DNA of 51,909 nucleotides, counting the filler, from Barthelona sp. PAP020 (lineage: Eukaryota), in assembly GCA_040182905.1 (NCBI GenBank). It is 2 parts of 2 records of this genome, joined end to end, with 100 filler letters (N's around TTAATTAATTAA, not from the genome) between each part and the next. Parts side by side here need not be neighbours in the genome. Positions count along the whole stretch, not along the records: positions 1 to 25,934 come from JARQWU010000141.1; 1 more part is not named here. One strand, written 5' to 3'. This document shows, one piece after another, positions 2,788 to 51,909 of the stretch. Position 1 is the first letter of the stretch. Each line of letters opens with the position of its first letter. Position numbers and translations under genes: made by a program. The notes beneath the pieces were generated by a model. It searched no databases, was not told the origin of the DNA, and saw only the letters and a program-made list of their open reading frames with translations.

Positions 2788-4012
2788 TTAATCAAAAAGA
2801 TCACTGTCACTATTTTCATAAACATCGCATACATCACTTTGTTCATCCATAAACGAATACATATTACCACCATTGGCCTCATTAACATCCACTAAATCCC
2901 AACATGTATCGATAATCCAATTATACTCCTCTTCATGAATAAATATACCTGCAGCCACTAATTTTCTAATGATTTGGGGATCAATATTCATAGATATGAG
3001 ATTCGATAACACAAAACATCCATTCTTTGATAATTCGACAAGGTTTGATTGATGGACAGGGTCATAAGAAAAAACTATTGGACATATCCTAATAGCGTCA
3101 TTGGAACTTTTTCCCCATGCCATTTGGGTCCTGTCTGGTGAAACAGCTAAAGAAAAAAACGCATGTTCACAACCAGAAAAGACCTTTTGAATCTCTTGAA
3201 AGGTTTCAATATTGAATGACGTAAGATAACCATCTCCAGACATAACAAGTAAGATAGTTGATGTGGGAAAATTAAGGGAATACACTTGACCTCCCATGTT
3301 GTATGTATGCATGAGTGACCCATCGTCCCAATTCCAAAGTTTAACTTTGTTTGATTCATCACCAACGGCAATAATTCTTTTGGTTGGATGGAAGTTTAAG
3401 GCTGAAATACTGGCATCATGATCAAATGTGTGAACAACAGTGAAAATATCAGTGTTAACTAACTTAGCAGTTCTATCACCACTGCCAGATAACAAATATT
3501 TACCATCTGACGACAGCTTTACACGCCAAATCCAGCTGGAATGAACTCTCTCTTCCAAAACAACATCACCACCATTTATATCCCTTTTCAACAAAGTTAT
3601 CTTCACCCCCAGAATATATATAATTGGAGCATGATGAAAAATAAATGTCATAAACAACATAATGATCGCTCAAAGTACGCAAAATTGAAAAATCTGGAAG
3701 GCTGTATATGATAATATTACAATCAGCAGAACAAGTTGCCAACTTTTGTCCATCTGCTGAAATAGCAAGCCCATAAACACCATCTGTATGATCATTCAAA
3801 GTGCGAATCAGTTTTTGGGTTTTCACATCAATTATATATACTTCTTTATAAGTGCTTATCACCAAATATCTACCATCTGAGAAATATTCACAATCGAACA
3901 TGTTCGCAGAAAGTATATTTTCAATTTCCTTAACACTGCTTTCATCAATCATTAAAATGAGCTCGTCGTAAATACTTTTCCGCATCAAATCACTATTTGA
4001 CCCAACAGACAT
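2788..4012 (-). pseudogene. WD40-repeat family member with one frameshift (~3585); pseudogene or sequence error
   Basis: ORFs 3566..4216 (from MSVGSN, ATG 4012) and 2788..3660 are the two halves of a protein colinear with the intact paralog at 40382-41596; the frame switches at YSGGEDNFVE/KRDING. Confidence 0.8.
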
Positions 4013-15126: not shown

Positions 15127-16014
15127 AGAAAAGCCTTATGCAAATCATACTTCTTTGGTTCAAAAAGTCATCAATGAAGAAAAAACAATAGAATATTGAA
15201 TAAAAATTTGATTATCTATTGAACAAATCCTTGTGCTCTGTGCCTATTTTAAAATAAAATTCTTTCATTTACAAATTTTTGAATGGCATCTTAGTATTTT
15301 GGGACAACATATCTGCAATTGTTATAGACAATCTTTGGAAAAAAATGATAATGAGACAGTTGGTAAAAAGACAAAAATACAAACACCAAAAGTCGAATTC
15401 AACTGAATCAACAATGTCAATTTACTTTGTCTTTTTACTTCGGTATCTTTTCAACATTCTTAAGAATTAACATTCAACTAAAACTGATAAAATTCTGTTG
15501 TTCATTCATTTTGTTTTTCCAAGGAACTACAAATACAGAAATCTAACTCTTTTGAAATTTGATGGCTTAGACTGTGTATTGGCTCAAATTTGGCATTAAT
15601 TGAAAATGCTATTGATACTTTATCATGGATTATCGATGAACAACTGACTGACAAAACTAATGAATTATTTTCTGCTTCATACGCATCATTTTTGTATGAT
15701 TCTAAATATTCATTAAATTTTAAGTGTTTAGCTATTTTTAGAAGCAATAACGATGTGCAAATTATTTAGATAATTGCTCACTTTTTTGTAATCTAAAAAA
15801 TCATGCAAACAGTGTTATTGGGATTGCTTTTGCACAGAATGAGCAAATATTTGCTACTTGTTCTGATGATTGTTGTGTTAATATCTGTGACCTTGAAAAT
15901 AATTTGTTTTTCCACTTGTTCTAATTCTATATATTCTGGTGATTCTACTGGCATTATTAAGAAGTTGAGGTTCGAATGATTGTACGTTAATTTTGGAGGC
16001 CAATGTTCATTCAA

Positions 16015-16730
16015 ACATTATTTGGAGTATTAACTTTGAGCTGATGGCAAAAATTTCCTAACTGTCATGATAATATTTTTAAATTGATTGATGCTGAAAA
16101 CTTCCATGTTATTCGTACATTCGATAAAAAAGAATATGTATATGAAGTGTGTTTCCATCCAACTGAAAGGATCGTTGCCGTTGGTTTTTTATCAAATAAA
16201 GTCAGTTTGATGAGTATCGATGATGGGTCACTTCTTCAATCATTTCATTTGGATGGTTGCCCAATTTCCCTTCACTTTTTCACCTCCAGCGTCCTGTTTA
16301 TCGTGTGTACTGACACCAAAATTACTTCATATAGTATGGAAAGCTTGCAACAAATTCAAAAGATCAATATTGATTGTAAAGATGATGGAGACGAGAGTTT
16401 TTCATTAGCAATATGCCCCAAAAGAAAAAAAGCAGCGATTTGTTTTGAATCTACAATTAGATTATATCCAATTGTAACTTTGTTCAATATTTCATATGAA
16501 TCTAAACTCATTGAGTTGTTAAGACACAATGGAGGTGTTATAGCTTCGGTGGTTTACCTAAAAATTGAAAATTGTAATTTTCGCAAGTTAATAAGTGCTG
16601 GTATTTGCTCAAACCAAGATGAATACAATATGATTATTGACACATATTGGGATCTTATTGATATGAACCAAAAAAATGGGAGAAACATTCATGAGTTTGG
16701 TATTGGACAAATGGGATAGTGATGATGATT
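16015..16730 (+). pseudogene. 5'-truncated WD40 family pseudogene
   Basis: ORF 16084..16719 has only the C-terminal half (FHPTERIVAVG ... SKLIELLRHNGG..RKLISAGI..IIDTYWDLIDMN). Frameshifted homology extends to about 16015; TAG precedes the acidic tail codons. Confidence 0.75.
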
Positions 16731-17639: not shown

Positions 17640-17711
17640 TGCCTCGCCCGAGAATCGAACTCGGCTTTCCACATTATGAGTGTAGCGTCCTAACCGCTAG
17701 ACTAGCAAGGC
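17640..17711 (-). tRNA. tRNA-Met (CAT), elongator type
   Basis: GCCTTGC TA GTCTAGCGGTTAGGAC G CTACA CTCATAA TGTGG AAAG CCGAG TTCGATT CTCGG GCGAGGC A, then TTTTT terminator; G1-C72 and TTC T-loop argue against initiator. Confidence 0.9.
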
Positions 17712-17877
17712 TTCGATATAAACAGTAAATAAATTATGAATGAATGAGGAGTTATCGAATAAACTAGCAAAAGAATTAATTTGCAAATTTAAAAATATTG
17801 TTATTACAAAGAAATAAATGGAGTTAAAAGCATTAAGTATATACTGAACTAAAGAAAAGAAAAAAGAAAATGAAGTT

Positions 17878-17924
17878 TTATTTCCAAGCCAAGAAGCACT
17901 GTGCGTATGAGTGAATAAAAAAGA
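17878..17924 (+). repeat. 3' inverted terminal repeat of the DIRS-like element
   Basis: TTATTTCCAAGCCAAGAAGCACTGTGCGTATGAGTGAATAAAAAAGA, exact reverse complement of 21741-21787. Confidence 0.95.
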
Positions 17925-17966
17925 ATAGTGTTTATTTGGTTAAAGGCTTTCGAGGCCCATTGTTCC

Positions 17967-18006
17967 TAACCAAATAAACTTCACTCAGCACAGGTTCCTA
18001 TTCTTT
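17967..18006. other. Internal complementary region (ICR-like) of the DIRS-like element
   Basis: 17967-17979 pairs with 17930-17942; 17980-17993 with 17899-17915 (3-nt bulge); 17998-18006 with 17920-17928. Confidence 0.75.
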
Positions 18007-20861
18007 CAAAAGTTCCCATAGCTTAGAATAGCATCATGGGATGAGTGTCCCAATTCTTCACGAATAACGGACAATGCTTTGTCCCTGGACATACCCTCTG
18101 TTATCAGTTCACGGAATCGCTTCTGTGCAAATGAACGACGAAAGTCGTGGGGTTTAATTCCCAGCCCTCTCAGCTTTGTTCGAACCCTTCTAATTAACTT
18201 AGTGAATTCCTTTTCGGTAGGTATATGATTAAAGCATAGGTATGGAGCACAGTCGTGCCTTGTCATAATCATTTGTTGGATGAGTTCCCCTTGTGGGGAT
18301 GATATGCCCAGGAGAGGGATCTTTTTGCAAACCCTTCTTGATTTTAAGCCCTTTGCGTCATCATCTGTTGCGCAAATGATGGAGAGCGATAGATCGGTGT
18401 TGATCTCTATTTTGTCTTTGCCAAACATGGGATTGCGAGTTCTTACTGCCTCGCCAATTCTTGCCCCTGTGAGTAGCATTACAGCAATTACTGTCATAGC
18501 TTGGTCGTCCCAAGTTCTTCTCTTTGAGCCCCAATTTAAGATGAATTGAGCATTAAGCTCACCAAAGGCTCCTTCTTTGATTATTTTAGGCGCTGCTCTG
18601 CTCGACGCCAGGCTTCCAATTGTTCTTCTCGTTGCTGTTAGTAGTGGATCTCCTATGATTCTTCTAAACGCGTCTGGCGCTTCTGTTTTGGCTGTTGCTA
18701 AGATCCCTGATAAATAATTCCTCATGGTCTGAGGTTGTATGTCTTCCTCCCGCAGATGCTGCAGGAACTGGAGAATGTGATCAATATTGATCTCTTTGAA
18801 TTTAAAGGCGTGCTTACGTTCCTTCATGAAGGTAATGAACCTTCGAGTTACTGAGGTATAATTGTCTCTCGTGGTCTTCTTTGTCGAAGCCATCAGGAAC
18901 TCCTTTGCCTCCTTGGAAAGGCCGGATATTTGTCCAGTGTTTGTCCTCTTTGTCTGTAGCCAAAAGGACAATGGGCTGTTTTCGATTCCGACCTTATGTC
19001 GAATTGTTGCTTCGGGTCGGTTTGACCTGAACGATTCCTTTAGCCAATCTTCTACGATATGTATTTGGCTTCCTTCTAAGTAAAGATTTCCCTCGTCGTC
19101 CGTAATTGTCGGGAGAGGGACAATGAAGTTACCTTTTCTCTTCCTAAAAGAGCCGTGTCCAATGGATAGCCTAGCTTGCTCTTGCATCTCTGGTGGTAAC
19201 TTTTCTACATTTGTGATTCTTGGGGCAGGATGAATCCTCCTCATGAGGTTTCTGCTCCCTTCCTTCTGTTGGTTATTTCGACCATCAATGACTGCCTGCC
19301 TTCTTGCTGGGCCTCCTGTCTTTGGTCTTCTCGTTGCTCCTCCTGGTATCACTTCCGGCCACATTCCGGGGTTGGCCAGGGGGTCATAAAATGATTTTGG
19401 TGTCTGTGGAGGAATTGTAATCATTGCGGGTAACTTTTGCTTGCCGCTATTTTCTCCATCATAATTCTTTTCTCTTGATAAGGCGTCTGCTATTATGTTT
19501 TCCCTTGTGCTGATGTAACGCACTTCTAAAAAGACACCTTCTTCACGGGCGAACTTTCTTATTTCTTGCCCTTCTTCGCTTAATGCCTGGCTCTTTGCCC
19601 GGCCTTCTAATGCTGCGATTGCGTTTTTGTTGTCGCAGTAAATTAAAATATTCGAACCCATGGGTAAATTTGGGGTTACGGCCTTGACTGCTGATCCCAC
19701 GGTTCTTAATTCTTTTAGGGCGATTGTTTTGCCCTCTTGTTCTCCGAATTTTAACGTTTGACCGGAGTCAAACACAATACATCCTGCTCCATCCATTGAC
19801 GCGTCTGTTGCGATGACGATGGATCTCGGTTCTACCGACAGTGGGATTGGTTTTATTCTTGCCAACTCAGTCGGGATATTTCTAACGATCTGCTCTGTCT
19901 CTGTCGTCAAGCGGATTCTCTTGGATTTTTCCTTGCTCTTATTTCCTGCCAGTAATCTGGCTACTCTTGTTTTAGTAATGTATAAGTCCTTATGAAAAGT
20001 GAAGGCGAATTCTAAATATCCGCTTAACTTTTGAATGTCTCCTATGGTTGTAGGATTTTTGAAATCCTGACAAAACTGTGCTAACTTGGCTCTCTTTGTT
20101 TGCTGTAGGATTACCAATGCCTCGTTTTCACCAAAGAGGAATGTCCATCCTCTGAAGTCAATTATCTTAGTAGGAGAGAGCCTTGATTTCTCAATATTTA
20201 TTTTCAAGTTTGCATTCTTAAACAGGGCGATAGTGCTTTCCACTGCCCTTCTTACTTCTTGTTGTGATTTGCCGACGATTAAAATATCGTCCAAATAGTA
20301 CGTTATCTTGATTTGCTGTCTCCTTAAGTGTCTTACCAATACACTCATCATTGAGGAGAAATAACTTGGTGCCACGGCTAGTCCGAATGGCAATTTCTTA
20401 GCTTCAAAAGGTTCCTCATCGAACCTGACACCCATCAATCTATAGTATTGTGGGTCCATTTGCATGTGATGATAGCCATCACTTAAATCTAAAGACGCTG
20501 CATAACGTGCGCCTTTGAAGAAAAAGGGGTCAATTGGTTCATACTTAAATGGGTATATGGGAGCCAATTGGTTTGATTCTCTAAAATCTGTGATGGTTCT
20601 TAATGACCCATCCGCTTTTGGGACGAAGAACACATCTGCCTCAACGCTTGGCTCTTCGTTATGATTCCATTTCTTTACTGCGCCCGAGTGGACTAGCTTC
20701 TCGAAAGCAAGTCTCTTGTCCTCGGTTAACTCATTGTGAGTGTGATTACGTCTAATACGTAATCCTTTCTTTGATTGTTCTACTGGCACTCCCCTTACAA
20801 TAGCACTGAGGAGTTCTCTTTTTGCCCCTAGTTCTTCAAAGAGTAGGGGGTTGAGCCCCAT
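18006..20861 (-). CDS. Fused reverse transcriptase - RNase H - tyrosine recombinase polyprotein (951 aa)
   Basis: RT: FFVPKADGSLRTITDFR, LDLSDGYHH, LPFGLAVAP, YYLDDILI. DIRS-type RNase H: IATDAS, KELRTV, YCDN, NIIADALSR. YR: core-binding helices (TRDNY..RF, TMRNYLSGI), GARIGE, PHDFRR, LGHSS, terminal Y. Confidence 0.95.
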   Translation of the reverse strand: MGLNPLLFEELGAKRELLSAIVRGVPVEQSKKGLRIRRNHTHNELTEDKRLAFEKLVHSGAVKKWNHNEEPSVEADVFFVPKADGSLRTITDFRESNQLAPIYPFKYEPIDPFFFKGARYAASLDLSDGYHHMQMDPQYYRLMGVRFDEEPFEAKKLPFGLAVAPSYFSSMMSVLVRHLRRQQIKITYYLDDILIVGKSQQEVRRAVESTIALFKNANLKINIEKSRLSPTKIIDFRGWTFLFGENEALVILQQTKRAKLAQFCQDFKNPTTIGDIQKLSGYLEFAFTFHKDLYITKTRVARLLAGNKSKEKSKRIRLTTETEQIVRNIPTELARIKPIPLSVEPRSIVIATDASMDGAGCIVFDSGQTLKFGEQEGKTIALKELRTVGSAVKAVTPNLPMGSNILIYCDNKNAIAALEGRAKSQALSEEGQEIRKFAREEGVFLEVRYISTRENIIADALSREKNYDGENSGKQKLPAMITIPPQTPKSFYDPLANPGMWPEVIPGGATRRPKTGGPARRQAVIDGRNNQQKEGSRNLMRRIHPAPRITNVEKLPPEMQEQARLSIGHGSFRKRKGNFIVPLPTITDDEGNLYLEGSQIHIVEDWLKESFRSNRPEATIRHKVGIENSPLSFWLQTKRTNTGQISGLSKEAKEFLMASTKKTTRDNYTSVTRRFITFMKERKHAFKFKEINIDHILQFLQHLREEDIQPQTMRNYLSGILATAKTEAPDAFRRIIGDPLLTATRRTIGSLASSRAAPKIIKEGAFGELNAQFILNWGSKRRTWDDQAMTVIAVMLLTGARIGEAVRTRNPMFGKDKIEINTDLSLSIICATDDDAKGLKSRRVCKKIPLLGISSPQGELIQQMIMTRHDCAPYLCFNHIPTEKEFTKLIRRVRTKLRGLGIKPHDFRRSFAQKRFRELITEGMSRDKALSVIREELGHSSHDAILSYGNF

Positions 20862-20889
20862 TCGGCTCTCATCTTTCTGTATAATAACA

Positions 20890-21570
20890 TTACTTCTTCT
20901 CCTTTCCGCTCTCGCCGTGCCGCGGAGCTGACTGCTCCCTATTTTTATTCTTTTCTTTCGAATTTGAGGGTGTTTTCTTTATAGCAGGGAGTTTCCTAAA
21001 TAGAGTCGCTTCTACCCCAACAGCGTCTGCAAAAACGCTTTGAAACTCATATACATATCCAAATAACTTGGTTTGTCTTCCCTGTCCTAGTTGTAGGTGA
21101 ATTGACATCATGAACTCCTGGAATTCATCTTCAGAAAGATTCTGACCACACCAAAACACAAGTTCTATCAGATCTTGTAAATGGCGCATGGCCGCATTGG
21201 CATAACTCAAGCGTAGTCTGGGGTAAAATGTTTCCCCCTTCTTTTCGTCTAACTCTAAGCTTTGTTCCATAATTTTTCCTCTAATCTTGGAGGTCACACT
21301 CATGTTTCCTCCTCTATTCTTATCCATCAGAAGCTGCATCAACATATTTTGATTTCTTCTGAGTTCTTCCAAGGTTTCGAATGGAACCTGAACAAAATGT
21401 TTTCGCCCTTGGGCATCTCCCTTTGCATTACTAGCCAATTCTTCCTCCTCGACTTCTTCTTCCTCGTCATCCTTATTATCCTCAATGGATCCTTGATCGA
21501 CGGTCTGCAAATCTTGCACAAAGTCCGCATATTCGGCCATGTTATCCTTGTTACGTTTCGCTGTAGACAT
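20890..21570 (-). CDS. ORF1 (gag-position) of the DIRS-like element
   Basis: 226-aa ORF between the 5' ITR and pol; acidic N-terminus, basic C-terminus; assigned by position only. Confidence 0.75.
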   Translation of the reverse strand: MSTAKRNKDNMAEYADFVQDLQTVDQGSIEDNKDDEEEEVEEEELASNAKGDAQGRKHFVQVPFETLEELRRNQNMLMQLLMDKNRGGNMSVTSKIRGKIMEQSLELDEKKGETFYPRLRLSYANAAMRHLQDLIELVFWCGQNLSEDEFQEFMMSIHLQLGQGRQTKLFGYVYEFQSVFADAVGVEATLFRKLPAIKKTPSNSKEKNKNREQSAPRHGESGKEKK

Positions 21571-21740
21571 CTTAATATTCTAAATCTTTAAAATTTTGCT
21601 TTTACAAAAATACAAAAAAAGTGGGAAAGGATAATTTTTCCAAAATTTTCATACTTGTTGAGAAAAATTCATTTGCAGCATCACATTTTCTGAGTTTACT
21701 TTCTTTGTAAATAAATATTGTTGTTTCACAACTTGATCAA

Positions 21741-21787
21741 TCTTTTTTATTCACTCATACGCACAGTGCTTCTTGGCTTGGAAATAA
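21741..21787 (-). repeat. 5' inverted terminal repeat of the DIRS-like element
   Basis: Exact reverse complement of 17878-17924. Confidence 0.95.
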
Positions 21788-21981
21788 TTGCTTTTCTTCG
21801 TGTTGAAATAAAAATTATTGATAATTGTTTATTGAAAATTGAAATAGTTACAATGTTGAAAAAAAAAACACAGTAACACGTTTAGAAACGAAAAGAAAAA
21901 GAAAGAAAGAGGGGTACAACAGTGCCAACATGTTGTTCTTTTTTTTTTTTTAACTTTTTTTATTTTTTTTTAATTTTTTTT

Positions 21982-25934: not shown

Positions 25935-26034
25935 NNNNNNNNNNNNNNNNNNNNNNNNNNNNNNNNNNNNNNNNNNNNTTAATTAATTAANNNNNNNNNN
26001 NNNNNNNNNNNNNNNNNNNNNNNNNNNNNNNNNN
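25935..26034. other. Artificial 100-nt contig-join spacer
   Basis: 44 N + TTAATTAATTAA (stops in all six frames) + 44 N. Confidence 0.95.
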
Positions 26035-33649: not shown

Positions 33650-34844
33650 ATGTCTGCTGATTTAATAGATGAATTGATGGGGAAAATGATTCATGACATC
33701 CTTCCTCACAAAATTGATAAAACCAGTCTAAGAATAATTGAGGGCGTGCTTTCTGGTAGTTTTTGGATTGTAAATATTCACCAGATGGTAAAAGTTTGGT
33801 TGTTGTTGGCGAAACACAGGCTCATGTAATTGATGCAGAAACTGGAAGGCTAAACCGTACTTTGGAAGATCGTTTACTTCGTGTATCTGCTGTTGCTTTT
33901 TCACCTGATGGTCAAAAGTTGGCAACATGTTCTTTTGATTATTCTGTTATCATTTATAATCTTCAAGATTTCTCCATTTTGAGAAGAATGAATTACAATA
34001 CCTTTGTTTTTGGCATTTGCTTTTCACAGCGTTCGAATTACATATATTATGGGGATGGAGATGGAGTTCTTAAGAAGTGGGATGTAAATAATGGCAATAT
34101 TGTATTTGATGAACATATTAATTCTCGACATATATGGAGAGTCAAACTTTCAATAGATGGTAAGTGTCTTTTCACTTGTAGTTTGGATAAAACTGTCAAA
34201 TTGCTTGACCCTTCTAATTTTGTTGTTGCTTAAACATTCATTCATGACAGCATTGTCAGGTCTATTTATTTTCATCCAACAAAAAGAATTGTCATGTGGA
34301 GATGAATCAAAGAAGGCTAAGCTCTGGGACATAGACGACGGAACATGTATTTACACCTTTAACATGAGCGAGCAAGTGGGCTCTTCATTCCTTTACATCC
34401 CGATTCCTGTTTATTATGTCTGGAGATAGGTATATTACCTCATGCAATGTGGATAGTTTTGAGAAGATTCAAAAGGTACATTGCGGTTGTACTGTCAAGC
34501 ACTTCTCATTTTGTGTATCTCCTGATGAGACAAAGTGAGTTTGTGGAGGTATGAGGATAAACTTAGACTGTATTCAATCATTCGGTTTTGTAATTCTACA
34601 CATCAGTCCAAACTCATTAAATTATCGAAGAACGGTGGCTACGTGTTGTCGAATCTTATTTCTATGAATATGAGCACTTTAATCATTAGAAAATTAATAG
34701 TTTCTGGTATTTGTATAAATACAGGGGAGTATGAGATGATTGTGAACACTTTGGGATTTAGCCAATGTTAACCAGACTCATGGCAATAATATGCACACAT
34801 TTATCAGTGGAACTAGTGATGAAAGTGATGAGGATGACGAGTGA
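33650..34844 (+). pseudogene. WD40 family pseudogene with several lesions
   Basis: ATG 33650, frameshift near 33760, in-frame TAA 34231-34233, further frameshifts; retains FSPDGQKLATCSFD, HIWRVKLS.DGK, HQSKLIKLSKNGGYVLSNLISMN and the acidic tail. Confidence 0.85.
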
Positions 34845-35146
34845 ATTGGCAATTTTAAAGAATTATTTTTACGACAGGCTGTAATCTCTGAAATGACAAA
34901 TGATGCATTTTTGGACTTTCTGTTTTTGCAACTCAATTTTCTATGAATATTTAATATCAAACGGTTCTTTTTAAAGTGGTGTAAATTGCTATTTGTTTAT
35001 TTTTGTTTCACCATAAAAAGATCTTTCTTATGAAAACGAATTGTTTTCAATATAAAAAATTCTCACAAATCATTGTGATAAACCGATTTTAGATATTTTT
35101 AGAAGTCCAAGGTAAAATGTGAATGATTTATTTATTTTTTTAATTT

Positions 35147-39404: not shown

Positions 39405-40381
39405 TTTATCAAACGATGGGATAATAAACGGGCTTGAAATAAAACAAAACAATGTAAATACCTGATCTTTTTATATTTTTTCAAACATTTTATCCAAAGT
39501 GAAAATAAATTTTCTTTTCTGAAAGAAACAATGTCCAATCATAAAACTGATATGGAAAGTGCCGATCAGTTAGATTCTCCACATCATGATAAGTTTGCAT
39601 ATCTTTTGCCCTTCGCTGTCACTGAAACTTCATTTAAAATGATTTCAAAGACTTCAAATAGCTTTAGAATTGATCGATTTAATTCTGGTAATATGAAATC
39701 ATCTTGATAATATGTTTTTTTTTTTGGTTTATGCTTGTTGTATCAATTGGATTTTTTTTCCCTTTTTTTTTTTTTTAAATGAAATTTCCCTGTTTTTCAT
39801 GATATGAAAAAAAAAATATATTCATCTTATATTCATTGGATTTTTTTCAAAAACATGAAAGAATATGGTGCTATGTGGAGTATATTTGTCACCTTTATTC
39901 TTTTACTGCAAATATATTTGAACACAATTTTGCGCAAACATTTATTCAATTTGTATCAATTCCCTTTGAAATGTAAATTTTTTTTTCTTTTTTTGAAATA
40001 ATGATTGTGAAATAGATTGATTGGTTGAATTGTTACCATGATCTATAAAAGATAAAGTGTTTTCGAACTTTTGAAACGAAAAATTCACAAAAAGAAAATG
40101 ACAAAAAATGTGCCAAAAAACAACCTGCAAACTTCGGAAATTTACAATATATTCACCTCAAACCAATATTTTGGTCAATATATTTGTTGATATTTATTAA
40201 AAAATGATTTTGCATTCTCATCAGTTTTTTTGTTAAATATATGTGTATGGCAAGACATTTTTGGAATAAAGAAAAGTTTTTTTAAAAGAGTGCTTGAATG
40301 GAAAAAAAAATCTCCTAAGGCTGTATTGAGAAAGATTTGTTTTTGCATTTTTTTGTAGATTTTTTTTTTTTGACGATTTTC

Positions 40382-41596
40382 ATGCCAAATCAGACACAGC
40401 AAGAACTAATTAGAAAGCTGTTTGAAGAATGGTTTCTTTTTACAATTGATGAAACGAAAAAAGAATCAATTGACGATATACTTCAGTCCTGGAAGTTTGG
40501 TTACATGTTTGGCTGTGACTATTCTCCAGATAATGAAAAATTTGCCATTTGCGCCTCTCAAAAGGTATTTATTTTTGATTCAAAAACGAGAATTTTGATT
40601 CATACTTTGAGAGATCATTCTCTTTATGTTTATGGAGTTTCTTTTTCCAGAGATGGAAGATTTTTGGCTTCATTTTCACGGGACAAATCAGTTAACATAT
40701 ATGACACGGAAGATTTCTCCCTGATACAGAAGATCGAAAATGAAACATATGTGTTTGGAATTTGTTTTTCTCATTGCTCTAAATATTTATATTTTGGTGA
40801 CAATAATGGTTTTATGAGGCAGTGGGATTTGGAAAGCAAAATTTTTGTTAAAGAGGTAAAAGTTACATCTCGAGGCATTATTTCTTTAGAAATTTCCTCA
40901 AACGATCAGTTCATTGTTTTTGGTTGTGATAATAACTCTTCAATAATGATTCATGCTTCAGATTTTTCTATTGTCCATACCTTTTCAATCAAAGGGTTCA
41001 CTAAATGTATTGCATTTCATCCTGACAATGAAATTTTTGCCACAGGTGGTCTTGAAAACAAATTGCACGTGTGGAATATTGAAGATGGTTCATCTCTTCA
41101 CACCATAGAAATGGAAGCCGCTATATATGGCCTTCATTTCTTAACCTCAACGGAACTGCTTGTTATGACTGGTGATGGGTACATTACAATATTTAATTAT
41201 GTTAATTTTGAACATATTCAAAAGGTATATTGCGGTTGTGAGAAAAATTGCTTTTCTTGTGCTATAGCACCTAACAAATCACAATTAGTGTGTGGAAGAT
41301 GTGATAAAACTAAAATCAAAACTTATTCAATCTCTTGTTCATATGACTCTTCATATCTGGAAAAGCTTGTTGAGCTGTCAAAAGATAATGGTTTTGTTAT
41401 CACTTACGGTTCCTCTTTGGGTTGGAACACTTCGATAATTAGAGAATTGGTGAGTGCTGGAATACATTTAAATGAACAAGATTTTGCATTGGTGTTTAAT
41501 ACATGCAAGGATTTAGTCAACACAAACAGGAACAATGGAGGCAATTTTCATGAATTTATCAGTGCAACTGTTGAAAACAACAAAGACTTGATTTGA
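40382..41596 (+). CDS. WD40-repeat protein, intact member of the expanded family
   Basis: Uninterrupted ORF with about seven WD repeats plus the family C-terminal domain (LVELSKDNG..IIRELVSAGI..TCKDLV..NGGNF). Confidence 0.9.
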   Translation: MPNQTQQELIRKLFEEWFLFTIDETKKESIDDILQSWKFGYMFGCDYSPDNEKFAICASQKVFIFDSKTRILIHTLRDHSLYVYGVSFSRDGRFLASFSRDKSVNIYDTEDFSLIQKIENETYVFGICFSHCSKYLYFGDNNGFMRQWDLESKIFVKEVKVTSRGIISLEISSNDQFIVFGCDNNSSIMIHASDFSIVHTFSIKGFTKCIAFHPDNEIFATGGLENKLHVWNIEDGSSLHTIEMEAAIYGLHFLTSTELLVMTGDGYITIFNYVNFEHIQKVYCGCEKNCFSCAIAPNKSQLVCGRCDKTKIKTYSISCSYDSSYLEKLVELSKDNGFVITYGSSLGWNTSIIRELVSAGIHLNEQDFALVFNTCKDLVNTNRNNGGNFHEFISATVENNKDLI

Positions 41597-48503: not shown

Positions 48504-48599
48504 TCACAATTGTAAAGTAATATTTTTTCATTTTTATTTGTCACAAAACATTGTGAAGGGAAGTTTTTGAGCTGCTTTTGCAGTAGTAGACAAACTCAA

Positions 48600-48730
48600 T
48601 TATTTCCAAGACAAGAAGCACCATGTGTATACGTAAATAAGAAAGAACTATGTTAATTTGGCTAAATCTTTTGAAGGTTTGATTGATCTGTTAAAACTTT
48701 CAATTTTTCAGAAGTGAAAGTTAAAACTTT
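48600..48730 (+). mobile_element. Degenerate orphan ITR of the DIRS-like family
   Basis: TTATTTCCAAGACAAGAAGCAC...AAAGAACTATGTTAATTTGG...GATTGATC aligns with 17878-17957 and 50113-50230. Confidence 0.75.
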
Positions 48731-50112
48731 TTTGTTTTTGCATTTGCATAATACAAAAAAAAAGGAATGAGCAATTTTGTCTCAAATTTTAACACTTAAT
48801 CGTCGGGACTGAATTTCAGCAACTCATTTGTTTTGCTGAAACATATTTGAATAAGTTCACTGAATTTTCTTTCTCTTTAAATAAGCACAGACAAAATATC
48901 CATTTTTGCTCATCAAGATTTAACTTCTGTCACACATTCATTTTGATCGAAATAACAAAAATGAGTGTTCTTAAGTCTTTATTACACATAAACAAGTCTT
49001 TTCACAGCCATAACAATTTCAAGCCACTTTAAACTTTTGATATTGTTGCAATTCAGACAAAAGCATTATTGTAAAATGGTGTTGCCTTCATTTATTTCAA
49101 CAGGAGATTGGCAAACATTTTCAACTTTGGAGAATGATTTAAAAGCAAACAAAATTACAAACAATTATCATCTTCCAACATCAACAAAGTGTTACTTCAA
49201 ACAATTTCCAACACAATTGAGCGAACAAATTCGAATGAGTTTTTCTTGTAATAATAAAACACGAACTTTACAACTCTATGGTTTGGGAGAAAAGAATCAA
49301 CCCATGAAAGAAAACAACTAGATGTAAGGGAACCTCCACAGCTCCAAAACATTTCACTTACATCGAGTCCTAACCGATAACCAAGAGTTGTGCGTAAAGT
49401 TGGAGGAAAAGCTTGCATATATTATTCCCATCCTAAGGTACTAAGGCTACCAACCGACTTTCCACGAAGATTCAATTCTTTCTACCCTTCAGCTAACCCT
49501 CCTTTGGCTATAGCTTCTCTCTAAAGGGGAAGTTGGTTGTTACTGAGACTTATTGATGTGCTGACTTTGGTCAATTCCTTTGTCCTTATCATCGATCAAT
49601 ATCATTTGGAGAGGTAATTCACAAAAGCATCATTAGTTGGTTATGTGGTCCCCAGGATCGGTCATTTCATTTACAGATCTTCAATAATCCAATATCAGTG
49701 GGACTGCTCTGATCAACCGTAGATTCAGAAGCAAGATCAAAGAATGCGATACATCTGCGCCGAAACTCAACAAGGTAAGCATCCAATCGCGTTGTATTTA
49801 ACGCATACACCAAAATAATTGGATGTGAAGCCTTATTTTAAAAGAGAACGGCAGTTACCCAGAAATTTGACTGTCTAGCTTCTTATTCAGCGAACGACGG
49901 GGAGCACCGATGTCTCAGCACCACTTTCTTAGGGTACTGCAAGAGTATGGCTGCGTGGCTTCAGAATAAAGAAGTTCAGATTTAAAATTTTTCCCTAAAT
50001 TAGACTTGACCACCAATCGGAATCAACCAACGGTTAATTCCTCTAGGAGTCGAAAAGTTGGTTTTCTGCAAGAAAAAACCTCCTCGCTTCATAAGTTGTA
50101 TTTTTTCTGAGT

Positions 50113-50230
50113 TTATTTCCAAGCCAAGAAGCACTGTGCGTATGGTGAATAGAAAAGAATAGTGTTTATTTGGTCAAAAGCTTTCGAAGCCTGATTGAAC
50201 ATTCAATTCTCCAAAAGATAAAATTAAAAC
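50113..50230 (+). mobile_element. Orphan ITR of the DIRS-like family (close copy)
   Basis: First 32 nt identical to 17878-17909; one deletion and four substitutions over the 80 nt matching 17878-17957. Confidence 0.9.
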
Positions 50231-51007
50231 TGGATAAATTTTACTTTTGTCAAATCTAAAAAGGAAACAAGGACAAGAAGCTCTTTCTTAATGAAGCAAC
50301 CTAGACGATACAACAGAATTTCAGTTTGGATCTCACACCATGAATTTTGACGGAAATTCACTAAAATGACTTTTTGGTTTGCTTTCTCTGTATTAGTTTG
50401 TATCACCACTACGTTAAAGTTTCATGCCACTTTTATCTTTTCCTAATATTACGATACCGATCATTGGAGTCCAACCCAACAAGAACAAAAAACAATTACA
50501 AATGATTTTGCCTTAATTTATTTAAATTGAAGGTTATCACACTACCAACATAAGAGGCTCATTGAAGAAGTGAAAAATGTTTCTTCAATGGAAGAGAGAA
50601 AATTGGTGAATACATATCGCACAGTTACAAGTTTAATTTGTGAATTTTGTGGGTACAAATATGTCAATACCATCATTACATCAATAAATCTGTAAAAATA
50701 AATTGGAACAATGTCTTTTGAAAAAGATATTCGAACAAACATAATTATGACAATCTTTCATAATTGTGCGACATTTTCACAATGTTTAAATCAATATTTT
50801 AAGTTCAATTGGCTGCATCAATTCGAAAAAGGAAATCTCAAGAAACAATTAAATTATATTGTGAAGAGTTCTACACAAAACAGACAATTAATCATCGAAT
50901 TTCATTTTGCCAACAACTAAATTAAAATAATGCCTGATTTGAGGGATAAATGTTGAATATCCAAAGAGAAATGATAAATTTGAGGTTCTTAATTTCTTTT
51001 GTCGACA

Positions 51008-51909
51008 ATGATTGTTAACACTGCAGTTGAAGAAACTGACCCTTATGTTAAGTATAACATGGACCAAGTTGTTGTTCCAGATGGGTTCGATGTGGATGGA
51101 TTTGAAGATAATGGTCGACCAAAGAAGATTTATAATGCATCCTGTGATGGTAATCTTGAGGTTGTTAAGCAGTGTATCAAAGCTGGCGTTGATGTGAACA
51201 AACAAGGCAAGGAAGGAAGGACAACGTTGTATGGAGCTGCTTTTAATGGGCATACAGAAGTTGTTGAGTTTTTGTTGGAATTTGGCGCTGATGTTAATTT
51301 GAGTATGAATGATAGTATTTCTCCATTGTACATCAGTTGTCAAAAAGGTCATCTTGATGTTGCCAAAATGCTCTTGGATCATGGTGCTGATGTAAATTTG
51401 TGTATGAATGACGGTGCTTCTCCATTATTCATCAGTTGTTATCATGGTTATCTTGCTGTTGCCAAAATGCTTTTGGATCATGGCGCTGATGTTAATTTGT
51501 GTACGGACGGTGGATATTCTCCATTGTTCATCAGTTGTCAAAAAGGCCATCTTGATGTTGCCAAGATGCTCTTGGATCATGGCGCTGATGTTAATTTGAG
51601 TACGAATGAGGGTGCTTCTCCATTGCACATCAGTTGTCAAAAGGGCTATCTTGATGTTGCCAGAATGCTCTTGGATCATGGAGCTGATGTTAATTTGTGT
51701 AGGGACGGTGGATATTCTCCATTGTATGTCAGTTGTTATTATGGTTATCTTGATATTGCCAAGATGCTTCTAGATTGTCCCGAAATAAACATATATGGTG
51801 AAGATATGCTGTTATTTTTCAACAGATTGTATACAAGTGATGAACAATGGGAAAAAAACCAATACAGCATTTTGAGCTGTCCCAATTTAAAACATCAATT
51901 GGAGAGTGT
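51008..51909 (+). CDS. Ankyrin-repeat protein, partial (runs off the right edge; absent from the ORF track)
   Basis: Open frame from ATG 51008: NASCDGNLEVVKQCIKAGVDVN, GRTTLYGAAFNGHTEVVEFLLEFGADVN, then five SPLxISCxxGxLxVAxMLLD units. Confidence 0.92.
   Translation, partial: MIVNTAVEETDPYVKYNMDQVVVPDGFDVDGFEDNGRPKKIYNASCDGNLEVVKQCIKAGVDVNKQGKEGRTTLYGAAFNGHTEVVEFLLEFGADVNLSMNDSISPLYISCQKGHLDVAKMLLDHGADVNLCMNDGASPLFISCYHGYLAVAKMLLDHGADVNLCTDGGYSPLFISCQKGHLDVAKMLLDHGADVNLSTNEGASPLHISCQKGYLDVARMLLDHGADVNLCRDGGYSPLYVSCYYGYLDIAKMLLDCPEINIYGEDMLLFFNRLYTSDEQWEKNQYSILSCPNLKHQLES
51283..51776 (+). repeat. 99-bp tandem ankyrin-coding repeats (about five units)
   Basis: GATCATGG.GCTGATGT.AATTTG recurs at 51377, 51476, 51575 and 51674. 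Confidence 0.92.

What the first reader, a model, noticed from the sequence alone, without database searches (positions are those of the whole stretch)
17871..18006. Pseudoknot-like internal complementary region at the element's 3' end
Seen: three blocks beside the pol stop pair with the ITR region in crossing order: 17899-17915 with 17980-17993, 17920-17928 with 17998-18006, and nested 17930-17942 with 17967-17979. They enclose a small GGCTT-TCG-AGGCC hairpin that keeps its pairing in the 50113 copy (GCTT-TCG-AAGC). AAATAAACTTCA (17972-17983) is also complementary, with one bulge, to TGAAGTTTTATTT spanning the outer ITR edge (17871-17883). Known: the DIRS1 ICR pairs with both termini to template circularisation. 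Inference: this is a more elaborate, multi-register ICR or structured RNA/ssDNA used for priming or circularisation.
Basis: partly seen in the sequence, partly recalled or inferred. Interest (0 to 1): 0.7.

Follow-up and report, generated by a model that had tools for sequence, protein, structure and literature searches.

The report
Non-standard end-fold in protist DIRS retrotransposon
In an intact-looking jumping gene of a single-celled anaerobe, the spot where such elements normally carry a copy of their two joined ends holds short blocks that match the inner part of the element's own end repeat, predicted to form a bulged, possibly knotted hairpin that likely helps rebuild the element's ends in a non-standard way.

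Summary
The blocks are real and far beyond chance (13-bp stem: 0 of 3000 shuffles). They fill 36 of the 49 nt between the recombinase stop and the right end of a 3.9-kb DIRS-type retrotransposon (gag; one RT-RNase H-recombinase ORF, no methyltransferase; 47-bp perfect ITRs), near-identical to a transcript protein labelled Barthelona. The core is a 27-bp stem-bulge-stem; the 9-bp crossing helix is energetically plausible but unproven. It is not a canonical ICR: nothing matches the left terminus, the right-terminus match is 12 bp with a bulge (P about 0.02-0.04) and is buried in the main stem, and 3- and 14-nt gaps rule out templating. Best guess (0.35): a cDNA-level clamp whose bulge exposes the inner nine ITR bases as a toehold for recopying the left ITR. 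Rivals: a recent fold-back by-product (0.27), an RNA 3'-end switch (0.2). Covariation could not be tested: two solo end fragments lack the partner blocks and no other copy was found. The small hairpin's survival at 50113 is uninformative. No ribozyme match.

The parts
17869..21788 (-). DIRS-type tyrosine-recombinase retrotransposon, about 3.92 kb; limits assume an ATT trinucleotide at each end (a shared CA dinucleotide fits too)
   Evidence: ITRs; ORFs; ATT read; ATT is the commonest DIRS1 terminus in PMC3266345. Exact limits inferred from one insertion.
21741..21787 (-). left ITR, 47 bp
   Evidence: 100% complementary to 17878-17924
20890..21570 (-). gag-like ORF from first ATG, 226 aa
   Evidence: named by position only, no significant Pfam family
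18006..20861 (-). single ORF RT - RNase H - linker - tyrosine recombinase, 951 aa from first ATG; no methyltransferase detected
   Evidence: Pfam RVT_1 and phage-integrase SAM domains; YYLDD, RNase H acidic residues, R / HxxR / H / Y visible and shared with P0004 and P0013
17998..18006 (.). block B', begins in the stop codon; pairs with B (crossing helix) or, partly, with 17886-17895
17980..17993 (.). block C' (8 + 6 nt); on the sense strand holds AGTGAA, the only GTRAA in 17800-18010
17967..17979 (.). block A', 13 nt
17972..17983 (.). register R', complementary with one bulge to the extreme right terminus; rICR-like
17945..17957 (.). small 5-bp hairpin in the loop of A
   Evidence: (probability 0.47-0.75)
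17930..17942 (.). block A, just inside the perfect ITR
17916..17929 (.). 14-nt bulge between A and C; holds block B (17920-17928) and the inner nine bases of the perfect ITR (17916-17924): candidate toehold
   Evidence: unpaired in all four nested folds; toehold role inferred
17899..17915 (.). block C (6 nt, 3-nt bulge, 8 nt), inside the ITR
17878..17924 (-). right ITR, 47 bp
17869..17877 (-). candidate right extension (7 nt beyond the ITR, ending in ATT)
   Evidence: continues the R register; in-register 6-mer occurs at 56 of 103604 positions; element versus flank not separable from one insertion
48600..48889 (-). decayed, internally deleted relative: right end (about 80% identical), a 55-nt segment of its own, then 5'-UTR and part of the left ITR; no A'/B'/C' partner
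   Evidence: 0 of 2230; 2 of 2204 with a longer query
50113..50231 (-). solo right-end-like fragment (94% identical over 81 nt) sharing the inner segment with 48600; no A'/B'/C' partner
   Evidence: (1 of 4074)

Best explanation
The 49 bases between the recombinase stop codon and the right end repeat carry three perfect complementary blocks that are predicted to fold the single-stranded cDNA into a stem-bulge-stem, which likely acts as a clamp for rebuilding the left end repeat in place of a canonical ICR. Steps: (1, shown) the blocks pair with the inner right ITR and the bases just inside it, and the 14-nt bulge contains the inner nine bases of the perfect ITR. (2, established for D. discoideum DIRS-1, assumed here) the transcript lacks the outer left ITR and is copied to linear single-stranded cDNA. 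(3, inferred) the cDNA 3' end lands on the bulge, RT extends it outward, displaces C' and copies the ITR to its edge; stem A stays shut and sets the inner limit of ITR identity, which ends 5 nt short of A. (4, inferred, weak) B' is a latch on the toehold, and register R may catch the cDNA 5' tip so that copying stops at the ITR edge, where R's bulge falls. (5, inferred) the ends join as ITR end, 7-8-nt spacer, ITR start, a recombinase-type site, without a left-ICR splint.
For: Position: DIRS1 ICRs lie here and the ICR is essential after first-strand synthesis (PMC7192593, passages). The element looks recently active: open ORFs, 47 of 47 ITR identity, catalytic motifs intact, 99.8% identical to a transcript-derived protein. 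36 of 49 nt are in blocks, in permuted order, which one fold-back accident does not give. All 36 pairs are Watson-Crick, so the fold holds on both strands and as DNA (A and C probability 0.96-1.0 in RNA and DNA, both strands); no G-U in 36 pairs has P 0.003-0.02 if 10-15% were expected (assumed rate). The ITRs are identical to the outer edge, with no 'divergent ITR' part such as ICR-constrained elements have (9-36 bp), as expected if the left ITR is copied whole from the right one. R sits at the predicted place (151 of 4074).
Against: No covariation at all. Both solo right-end fragments lack the partner blocks (no complement of 7 nt or more inside them; fold z 0.17-0.79) and share another inner segment (1 of 4074), so the fold may be younger than they are; whether that segment is an older 3' UTR or a deletion joint is unresolved. 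Absence of G-U pairs fits recent copying equally well. The ITR edge falling in the bulge has roughly a 1 in 5 chance (14 of about 60 nt; my estimate). R is about -2 to -5 kcal/mol against -17 to -33 for A plus C and never forms in the nested ensembles. In the pseudoknot only four toehold bases stay free. The transcription start and 3' end are unknown.
Confidence: 0.35

Rival explanations
1. By-product: the blocks are a recent, unselected patchwork copy of the neighbouring ITR made by RT template switching at short microhomologies, in one lineage or one copy.
For: Blocks match the present ITR alleles at 36 of 36 positions with no G-U; A', R' and C' join through shared short words; both solo fragments lack them; A'+C' reads as a colinear copy with two deletions.
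Against: At least three jumps are needed, B' is out of order and lands in the one large bulge (332 of 94008); the result fills the 3' UTR of an intact, transcribed element that otherwise has no ICR.
Confidence: 0.27
2. RNA 3'-end switch: C' holds the element's poly(A) signal; pairing of A' and C' hides the signal and cleavage site, so that some transcripts read through to the terminus (genomic RNA) and others stop early (mRNA).
For: AGTGAA at 17985-17980 is the only GTRAA on the sense 3' end; GTRAA follows 8 of 19 host ORF stops (47 of 5000 shuffles) and GTRAAT 6 of 19 (13 of 5000), AATAAA 4 of 19 (919 of 5000). WGURAA is the Giardia signal (PMC11529991, passages). Sense RNA folds better than plus; B pairs transiently in nascent RNA.
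Against: Motif chosen after looking at the flanks; 19 of 26 ORFs used, stops unverified; AGTRAA itself follows 1 of 19; that paper calls WGURAA derived in Giardia and does not mention Barthelona (0 occurrences). C is transcribed about 65 nt after C'. No G-U in the core.
Confidence: 0.2
3. One reading: a multi-register ICR that splints both termini for circularisation or self-primes reverse transcription.
For: R pairs the extreme right terminus; 2 of 3 junction bases fit an AAT junction; DIRS priming is unknown.
Against: No left-terminus complement (1398 of 4074) and no junction match beyond R (290 of 4074); R buried; in DIRS-1 the ICR is not needed to start reverse transcription.
Confidence: 0.12
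4. Self-cleaving ribozyme that makes the RNA 3' end.
For: Sense strand has CTGAGTGA and a later GAAA, like a hammerhead core with one extra base; the B/C/A topology resembles HDV P1/P2/P3 (recalled).
Against: No stem II (0 bp); no Rfam match to E 10 in the region, only the tRNA and three off-target hits in 701 nt; no P1.1, P4 or J4/2 by eye.
Confidence: 0.03

Closest known systems
ICR of DIRS1-like retrotransposons (D. discoideum DIRS-1, PMC7192593; 28 elements in PMC3266345)
   Same: Complementary region between the recombinase stop and the right ITR; ITRs; a right extension with a matching register; ATT at both ends; a stretch shared by both ITRs and the ICR.
   Different: No left ICR; right match 12 bp and bulged instead of 36-89 nt near-perfect; extension 7 nt (+2) against 9-75; main pairing is with the inner ITR and has gaps, so it cannot template; ITR 47 bp (66-316 known) with no divergent part.
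DIRS1/PAT-type pol (RT-RNase H-Dam-like MT)
   Same: Nearest outside RT-RH relatives are of this type: Dam hit in 15 of 31 scanned, out of 147 non-Barthelona hits listed.
   Different: No MT hit here; recombinase in frame with pol in three Barthelona-labelled families. One outside hit, P0048, also has RT-RH and a recombinase-like tail in one frame, and single-ORF TATE copies exist (PMC6681497), so the fusion is not unique.
Ngaro, PAT, VIPER/TATE (split direct repeats)
   Same: Tyrosine recombinase; Ngaro and VIPER lack MT; C' and A' are direct partial copies of end sequence near the 3' end; short end-derived relatives (SIRE) exist.
   Different: Termini here are inverted, not A1-B1-A2-B2 direct repeats.
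Poly(A)-signal-occluding hairpins of retroviruses (recalled, HIV-1)
   Same: A candidate signal lies inside a 3' stem.
   Different: Signal use here untested; partner arm far downstream.

Membership tests
DIRS order (YR retrotransposons) | gag-like ORF, RT, RNase H and tyrosine recombinase; no DDE integrase or protease | tested here: met
   gag by position only
DIRS1-like superfamily | inverted terminal repeats | tested here: met
   47 bp, 100%
DIRS1-like superfamily | RT/RH related to DIRS pol | tested here: met
   nearest outside hits are RT-RH, 15 of 31 scanned with a Dam-like domain; no tree built, so DIRS1 versus PAT not resolved
DIRS1-like superfamily | methyltransferase domain after RNase H | tested here: not met
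   no Dam hit at E 0.1, nor in P0003, P0004, P0013; a 190-aa conserved linker of unknown kind lies there
DIRS1-like superfamily | NTT termini and no target-site duplication | tested here: inconclusive
   ATT at both ends fits, a shared CA fits too; one insertion only
canonical ICR | left ICR complementary to the left terminus | tested here: not met
   1398 of 4074 background windows match as well
canonical ICR | right ICR complementary (near 100%, 36-89 nt) to the right terminus and extension | tested here: inconclusive
   12 bp with a bulge, 151 of 4074; right place, far too short
canonical ICR | 3-bp circular junction where the two ICRs overlap | tested here: not met
   AGT where AAT is expected and no left half follows; junction match 290 of 4074
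canonical ICR | required for retrotransposition | not testable with these tools
   needs a mobility assay
H-type pseudoknot | crossing helices that form together | tested here: inconclusive
   crossing in sequence; rough energy favours it by 1-5 kcal/mol with recalled penalties; two 4-nt linkers face spans of about 27 and 41 angstrom; no pseudoknot folder, no probing
conserved RNA/ssDNA structure | covariation across copies | not testable with these tools
   no second copy with partner arms
hammerhead or HDV-like ribozyme | catalytic core in the right helical frame | tested here: not met

The most novel reading that the evidence does not exclude
A metamonad lineage of compact DIRS elements has dropped the two-part ICR and the methyltransferase and rebuilds its ends with a pseudoknot-latched toehold clamp on the single-stranded cDNA; the joined ends then form a recombinase site of inverted arms around a 7-8-nt spacer that inserts into weakly palindromic targets.
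Probability: 0.25. Interest if true: 0.7.

Novelty: new variant of a known kind. Interest (0 to 1): 0.45.

Why it matters
How DIRS elements prime, restore and join their ends rests on a 1985 model tested in one species; the primer is unknown and the circle junction was not amplified (PMC7192593). A 3.9-kb element with one enzyme ORF, 47-bp ITRs and only 49 nt of ICR space is about as small a test system as the order offers. If its fold is conserved, end restoration works without a left ICR and pairing can matter without templating. If not, it shows how fast RT template switching builds ICR-like sequence. I found no report of DIRS elements in metamonads or of this fold in the searches (open-access library only).

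Tried and rejected
More copies: no genome held; no sequencing run listed (none listed, no evidence either way), so no reads were laid; protein scans of metagenome and viral contigs gave 429 and 44 pattern matches, none confirmed; the ITR pattern had 0 matches in metagenome, viral and prokaryote collections; the window holds 4 ITR copies. An outer stem between the last recombinase codons and the outer ITR appeared in a truncated fold but vanished with more context; 221 of 1000 synonymous recodings and 506 of 691 swapped upstream stretches fold as well: rejected. A permuted, degenerate left ICR at 17959-17973 seen by eye: not significant. ICR as remnant of a longer ancestral ITR: 18 of 25 identity to the left UTR, 144 of 4074, one of about a dozen tests: not accepted. 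Inner segment of the solo copies as gag-start homologue (317 of 4028, 427 of 4032) or followed by a recombinase tail: not significant. Stop readthrough or +1 shift stimulated by the fold would add only 6-8 residues (by eye): rejected. ViennaRNA's zero probability for B is a limit of nested folding and was not counted against the pseudoknot. PDB sequence search of the recombinase gave only spurious hits. No structure or complex was predicted. Look-ups of earlier findings by place and sequence were empty. No supplementary files were read; Additional File 3 of PMC3266345 may bear on ICR sizes.

Full report
1. The observation. The finding lies at the 3' end of a minus-strand element. Every block is present as written: A 13 bp, B 9 bp, C 6 + 8 bp around a 3-nt bulge, R 12 bp with one bulge. 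No shuffle of 3000 gives a 13-bp stem, and the region folds at z -4.90 as sense RNA and -3.47 as plus strand. In nested ensembles A and C have probability 0.96-1.0 in RNA and DNA on both strands; R has about 0; B has 0 only because it crosses C. A rough pseudoknot estimate (recalled penalties of 7-9.6 kcal/mol) gives -44.2 to -46.8 against -41.7 for sense RNA and -23.9 to -26.5 against -22.7 for plus-strand DNA; two 4-nt linkers must bridge spans of about 27 and 41 angstrom in idealised A-form, tight but not excluded with a flexible junction. B is unlikely chance (332 of 94008 windows); R is marginal (151 of 4074). The small hairpin at 50113 says nothing (12152 of 20000 random mutants keep 4 bp); the 7-bp one at 48600 is mildly suggestive (200 of 17258).

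2. The element. ITRs of 47 bp, identical to the outer edge, at 17878-17924 and 21741-21787 enclose a gag-like ORF and a single RT-RNase H-recombinase ORF ending at 18006. Catalytic motifs are intact and shared with two paralogues of 69% and 32% identity. The protein is 99.8% identical to transcript-derived P0003, labelled Barthelona sp. in EukProt, as are the paralogues. Of the best 150 among 23999 hits in 1.84 billion proteins, only these two paralogues match over the full length; outside hits cover RT-RH, and 15 of 31 scanned (of 147) carry a Dam-like domain. So this is DIRS-type, without MT. Both ends can be read as ATT, the commonest DIRS1 terminus (PMC3266345, section 10 read whole). Joining the ends would put a 7- or 8-nt spacer between inverted ITR arms, as in recombinase sites (recalled); the empty site would hold a 7-bp inverted repeat (258 of 20000 random AT-rich joins).

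3. Is it an ICR? Canonical ICRs have a left half complementary to the left terminus and a right half complementary to the right terminus and extension, near 100%, 85-130 nt or more in all. Here the left half is missing (1398 of 4074), the junction is not matched beyond R (290 of 4074), and R is 12 bp. The dominant pairing is with the inner ITR and the 18 nt inside it, with gaps of 3 and 14 nt, so neither arm can be copied from the other in a normal cycle. It stands in the ICR's place but fails the membership test.

4. Other copies. Two fragments at 48600 and 50113 carry the ITR, B, A and the small hairpin. 48600 continues into antisense 5'-UTR and part of the left ITR (0 of 2230; 2 of 2204 with a longer query), so it is the right end of an internally deleted relative. 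Both share a 34-50-nt inner segment (1 of 4074) unrelated to the blocks (2934 and 1536 of 4074), have no partner arm of 7 nt or more and fold no better than shuffles. They either lost the region or predate it; I could not tell which. No further copy was found. Covariation is therefore untested, and this caps every claim below.

5. How it likely works. DIRS-1 makes mostly linear single-stranded cDNA from a transcript short at its ends, first restores the left ITR from the right one, and needs the ICR after first-strand synthesis (PMC7192593, passages). Three features here fit a clamp for that first step: the core is all Watson-Crick and so holds as DNA; the bulge exposes the inner nine bases of the perfect ITR; ITR identity stops 5 nt before stem A and runs to the outer edge with no divergent part. 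I infer that the cDNA 3' end lands on the bulge, RT copies outward and displaces C', A stays shut, B' is a latch, and R may stop copying at the ITR edge (0.35). A recent template-switch patchwork explains the perfect match and the bare solo copies about as well (0.27). An RNA switch over a WGURAA-type poly(A) signal in C' has modest, post hoc support from host 3' flanks (8 of 19 ORFs, 47 of 5000 shuffles; 19 of 26 ORFs used) (0.2). Splint or self-priming ICR 0.12; ribozyme 0.03.

6. Literature seen. PMC7192593, PMC6681497, PMC3783388, PMC11529991, PMC11316075, PMC3537659: passages only. PMC3266345: passages and section 10. Others: search listings only. No supplements. HDV and hammerhead layouts, HIV poly(A) hairpin, recombinase-site layout, pseudoknot penalties and helix parameters are recalled.

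7. Verdict. Observation confirmed; interpretation partly supported. A real, unusual fold in the ICR position of a compact DIRS variant from a lineage where I found none reported, with an untested function and a live chance of being an accident. New variant of a known kind; interest 0.45.

Noticed in passing
window 17640-17711 (-): tRNA-Met gene whose 5' end lies about 160 bp from the element's right end, a possible tRNA-upstream insertion; the solo fragments are not beside tRNA genes.
   Followed up: no
window 50103-50115: The 13 bases outside the 50113 fragment equal the antisense of the element's 5'-UTR (21686-21698); 95 of 51525 25-nt windows share a 13-mer with that UTR. Could be a relic of a left-end to right-end joint with deletion; by local alignment only 90 of 4064.
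   Followed up: partly
window 48592-48598 and 50108-50114: The 7 bases outside 48600 are the exact reverse complement of the outer edge of 50113 (word occurs at 27 of 103818 positions) and resemble the candidate right extension.
   Followed up: partly
window 48692-48709: Inner segment of 48600 resembles the predicted end junction (27 of 4074), as a canonical ICR would, and has its own 8-bp hairpin; the 50113 version does not (700 of 4074).
   Followed up: partly
window 17963-17969 and 17994-18000: A 7-nt direct repeat flanks the A'+C' segment.
   Followed up: no
window, 3' flanks of long ORFs: GTRAA(T) is enriched after host stop codons, hinting at a Giardia-like WGURAA poly(A) signal outside Giardia, where PMC11529991 calls it derived.
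   Followed up: partly
window 18950-19480 (-), P0001 residues about 500-680: About 190-aa linker between RNase H and recombinase, conserved in three families, with no Pfam hit; stands where MT would.
   Followed up: no
window 20861-20893: gag stop overlaps an out-of-frame ATG (TAATG) of a 20-codon ORF; pol frame is open from 20978 with first ATG at 20861. How pol is expressed is unclear.
   Followed up: no
window 49300-50100: GC-richer stretch (0.38) between the two solo fragments with no long ORF and no match to the element's proteins.
   Followed up: partly
window 25935-26034: Two runs of 44 N around a 12-nt palindrome: scaffold gap.
   Followed up: no
window 2788-3669, 15900-16719, 34000-34950, 40319-41596; 51146-51775: Dispersed WD40-type paralogues and a 99-nt tandem array, 33 codons per unit, ankyrin-like by period (recalled, untested).
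   Followed up: no
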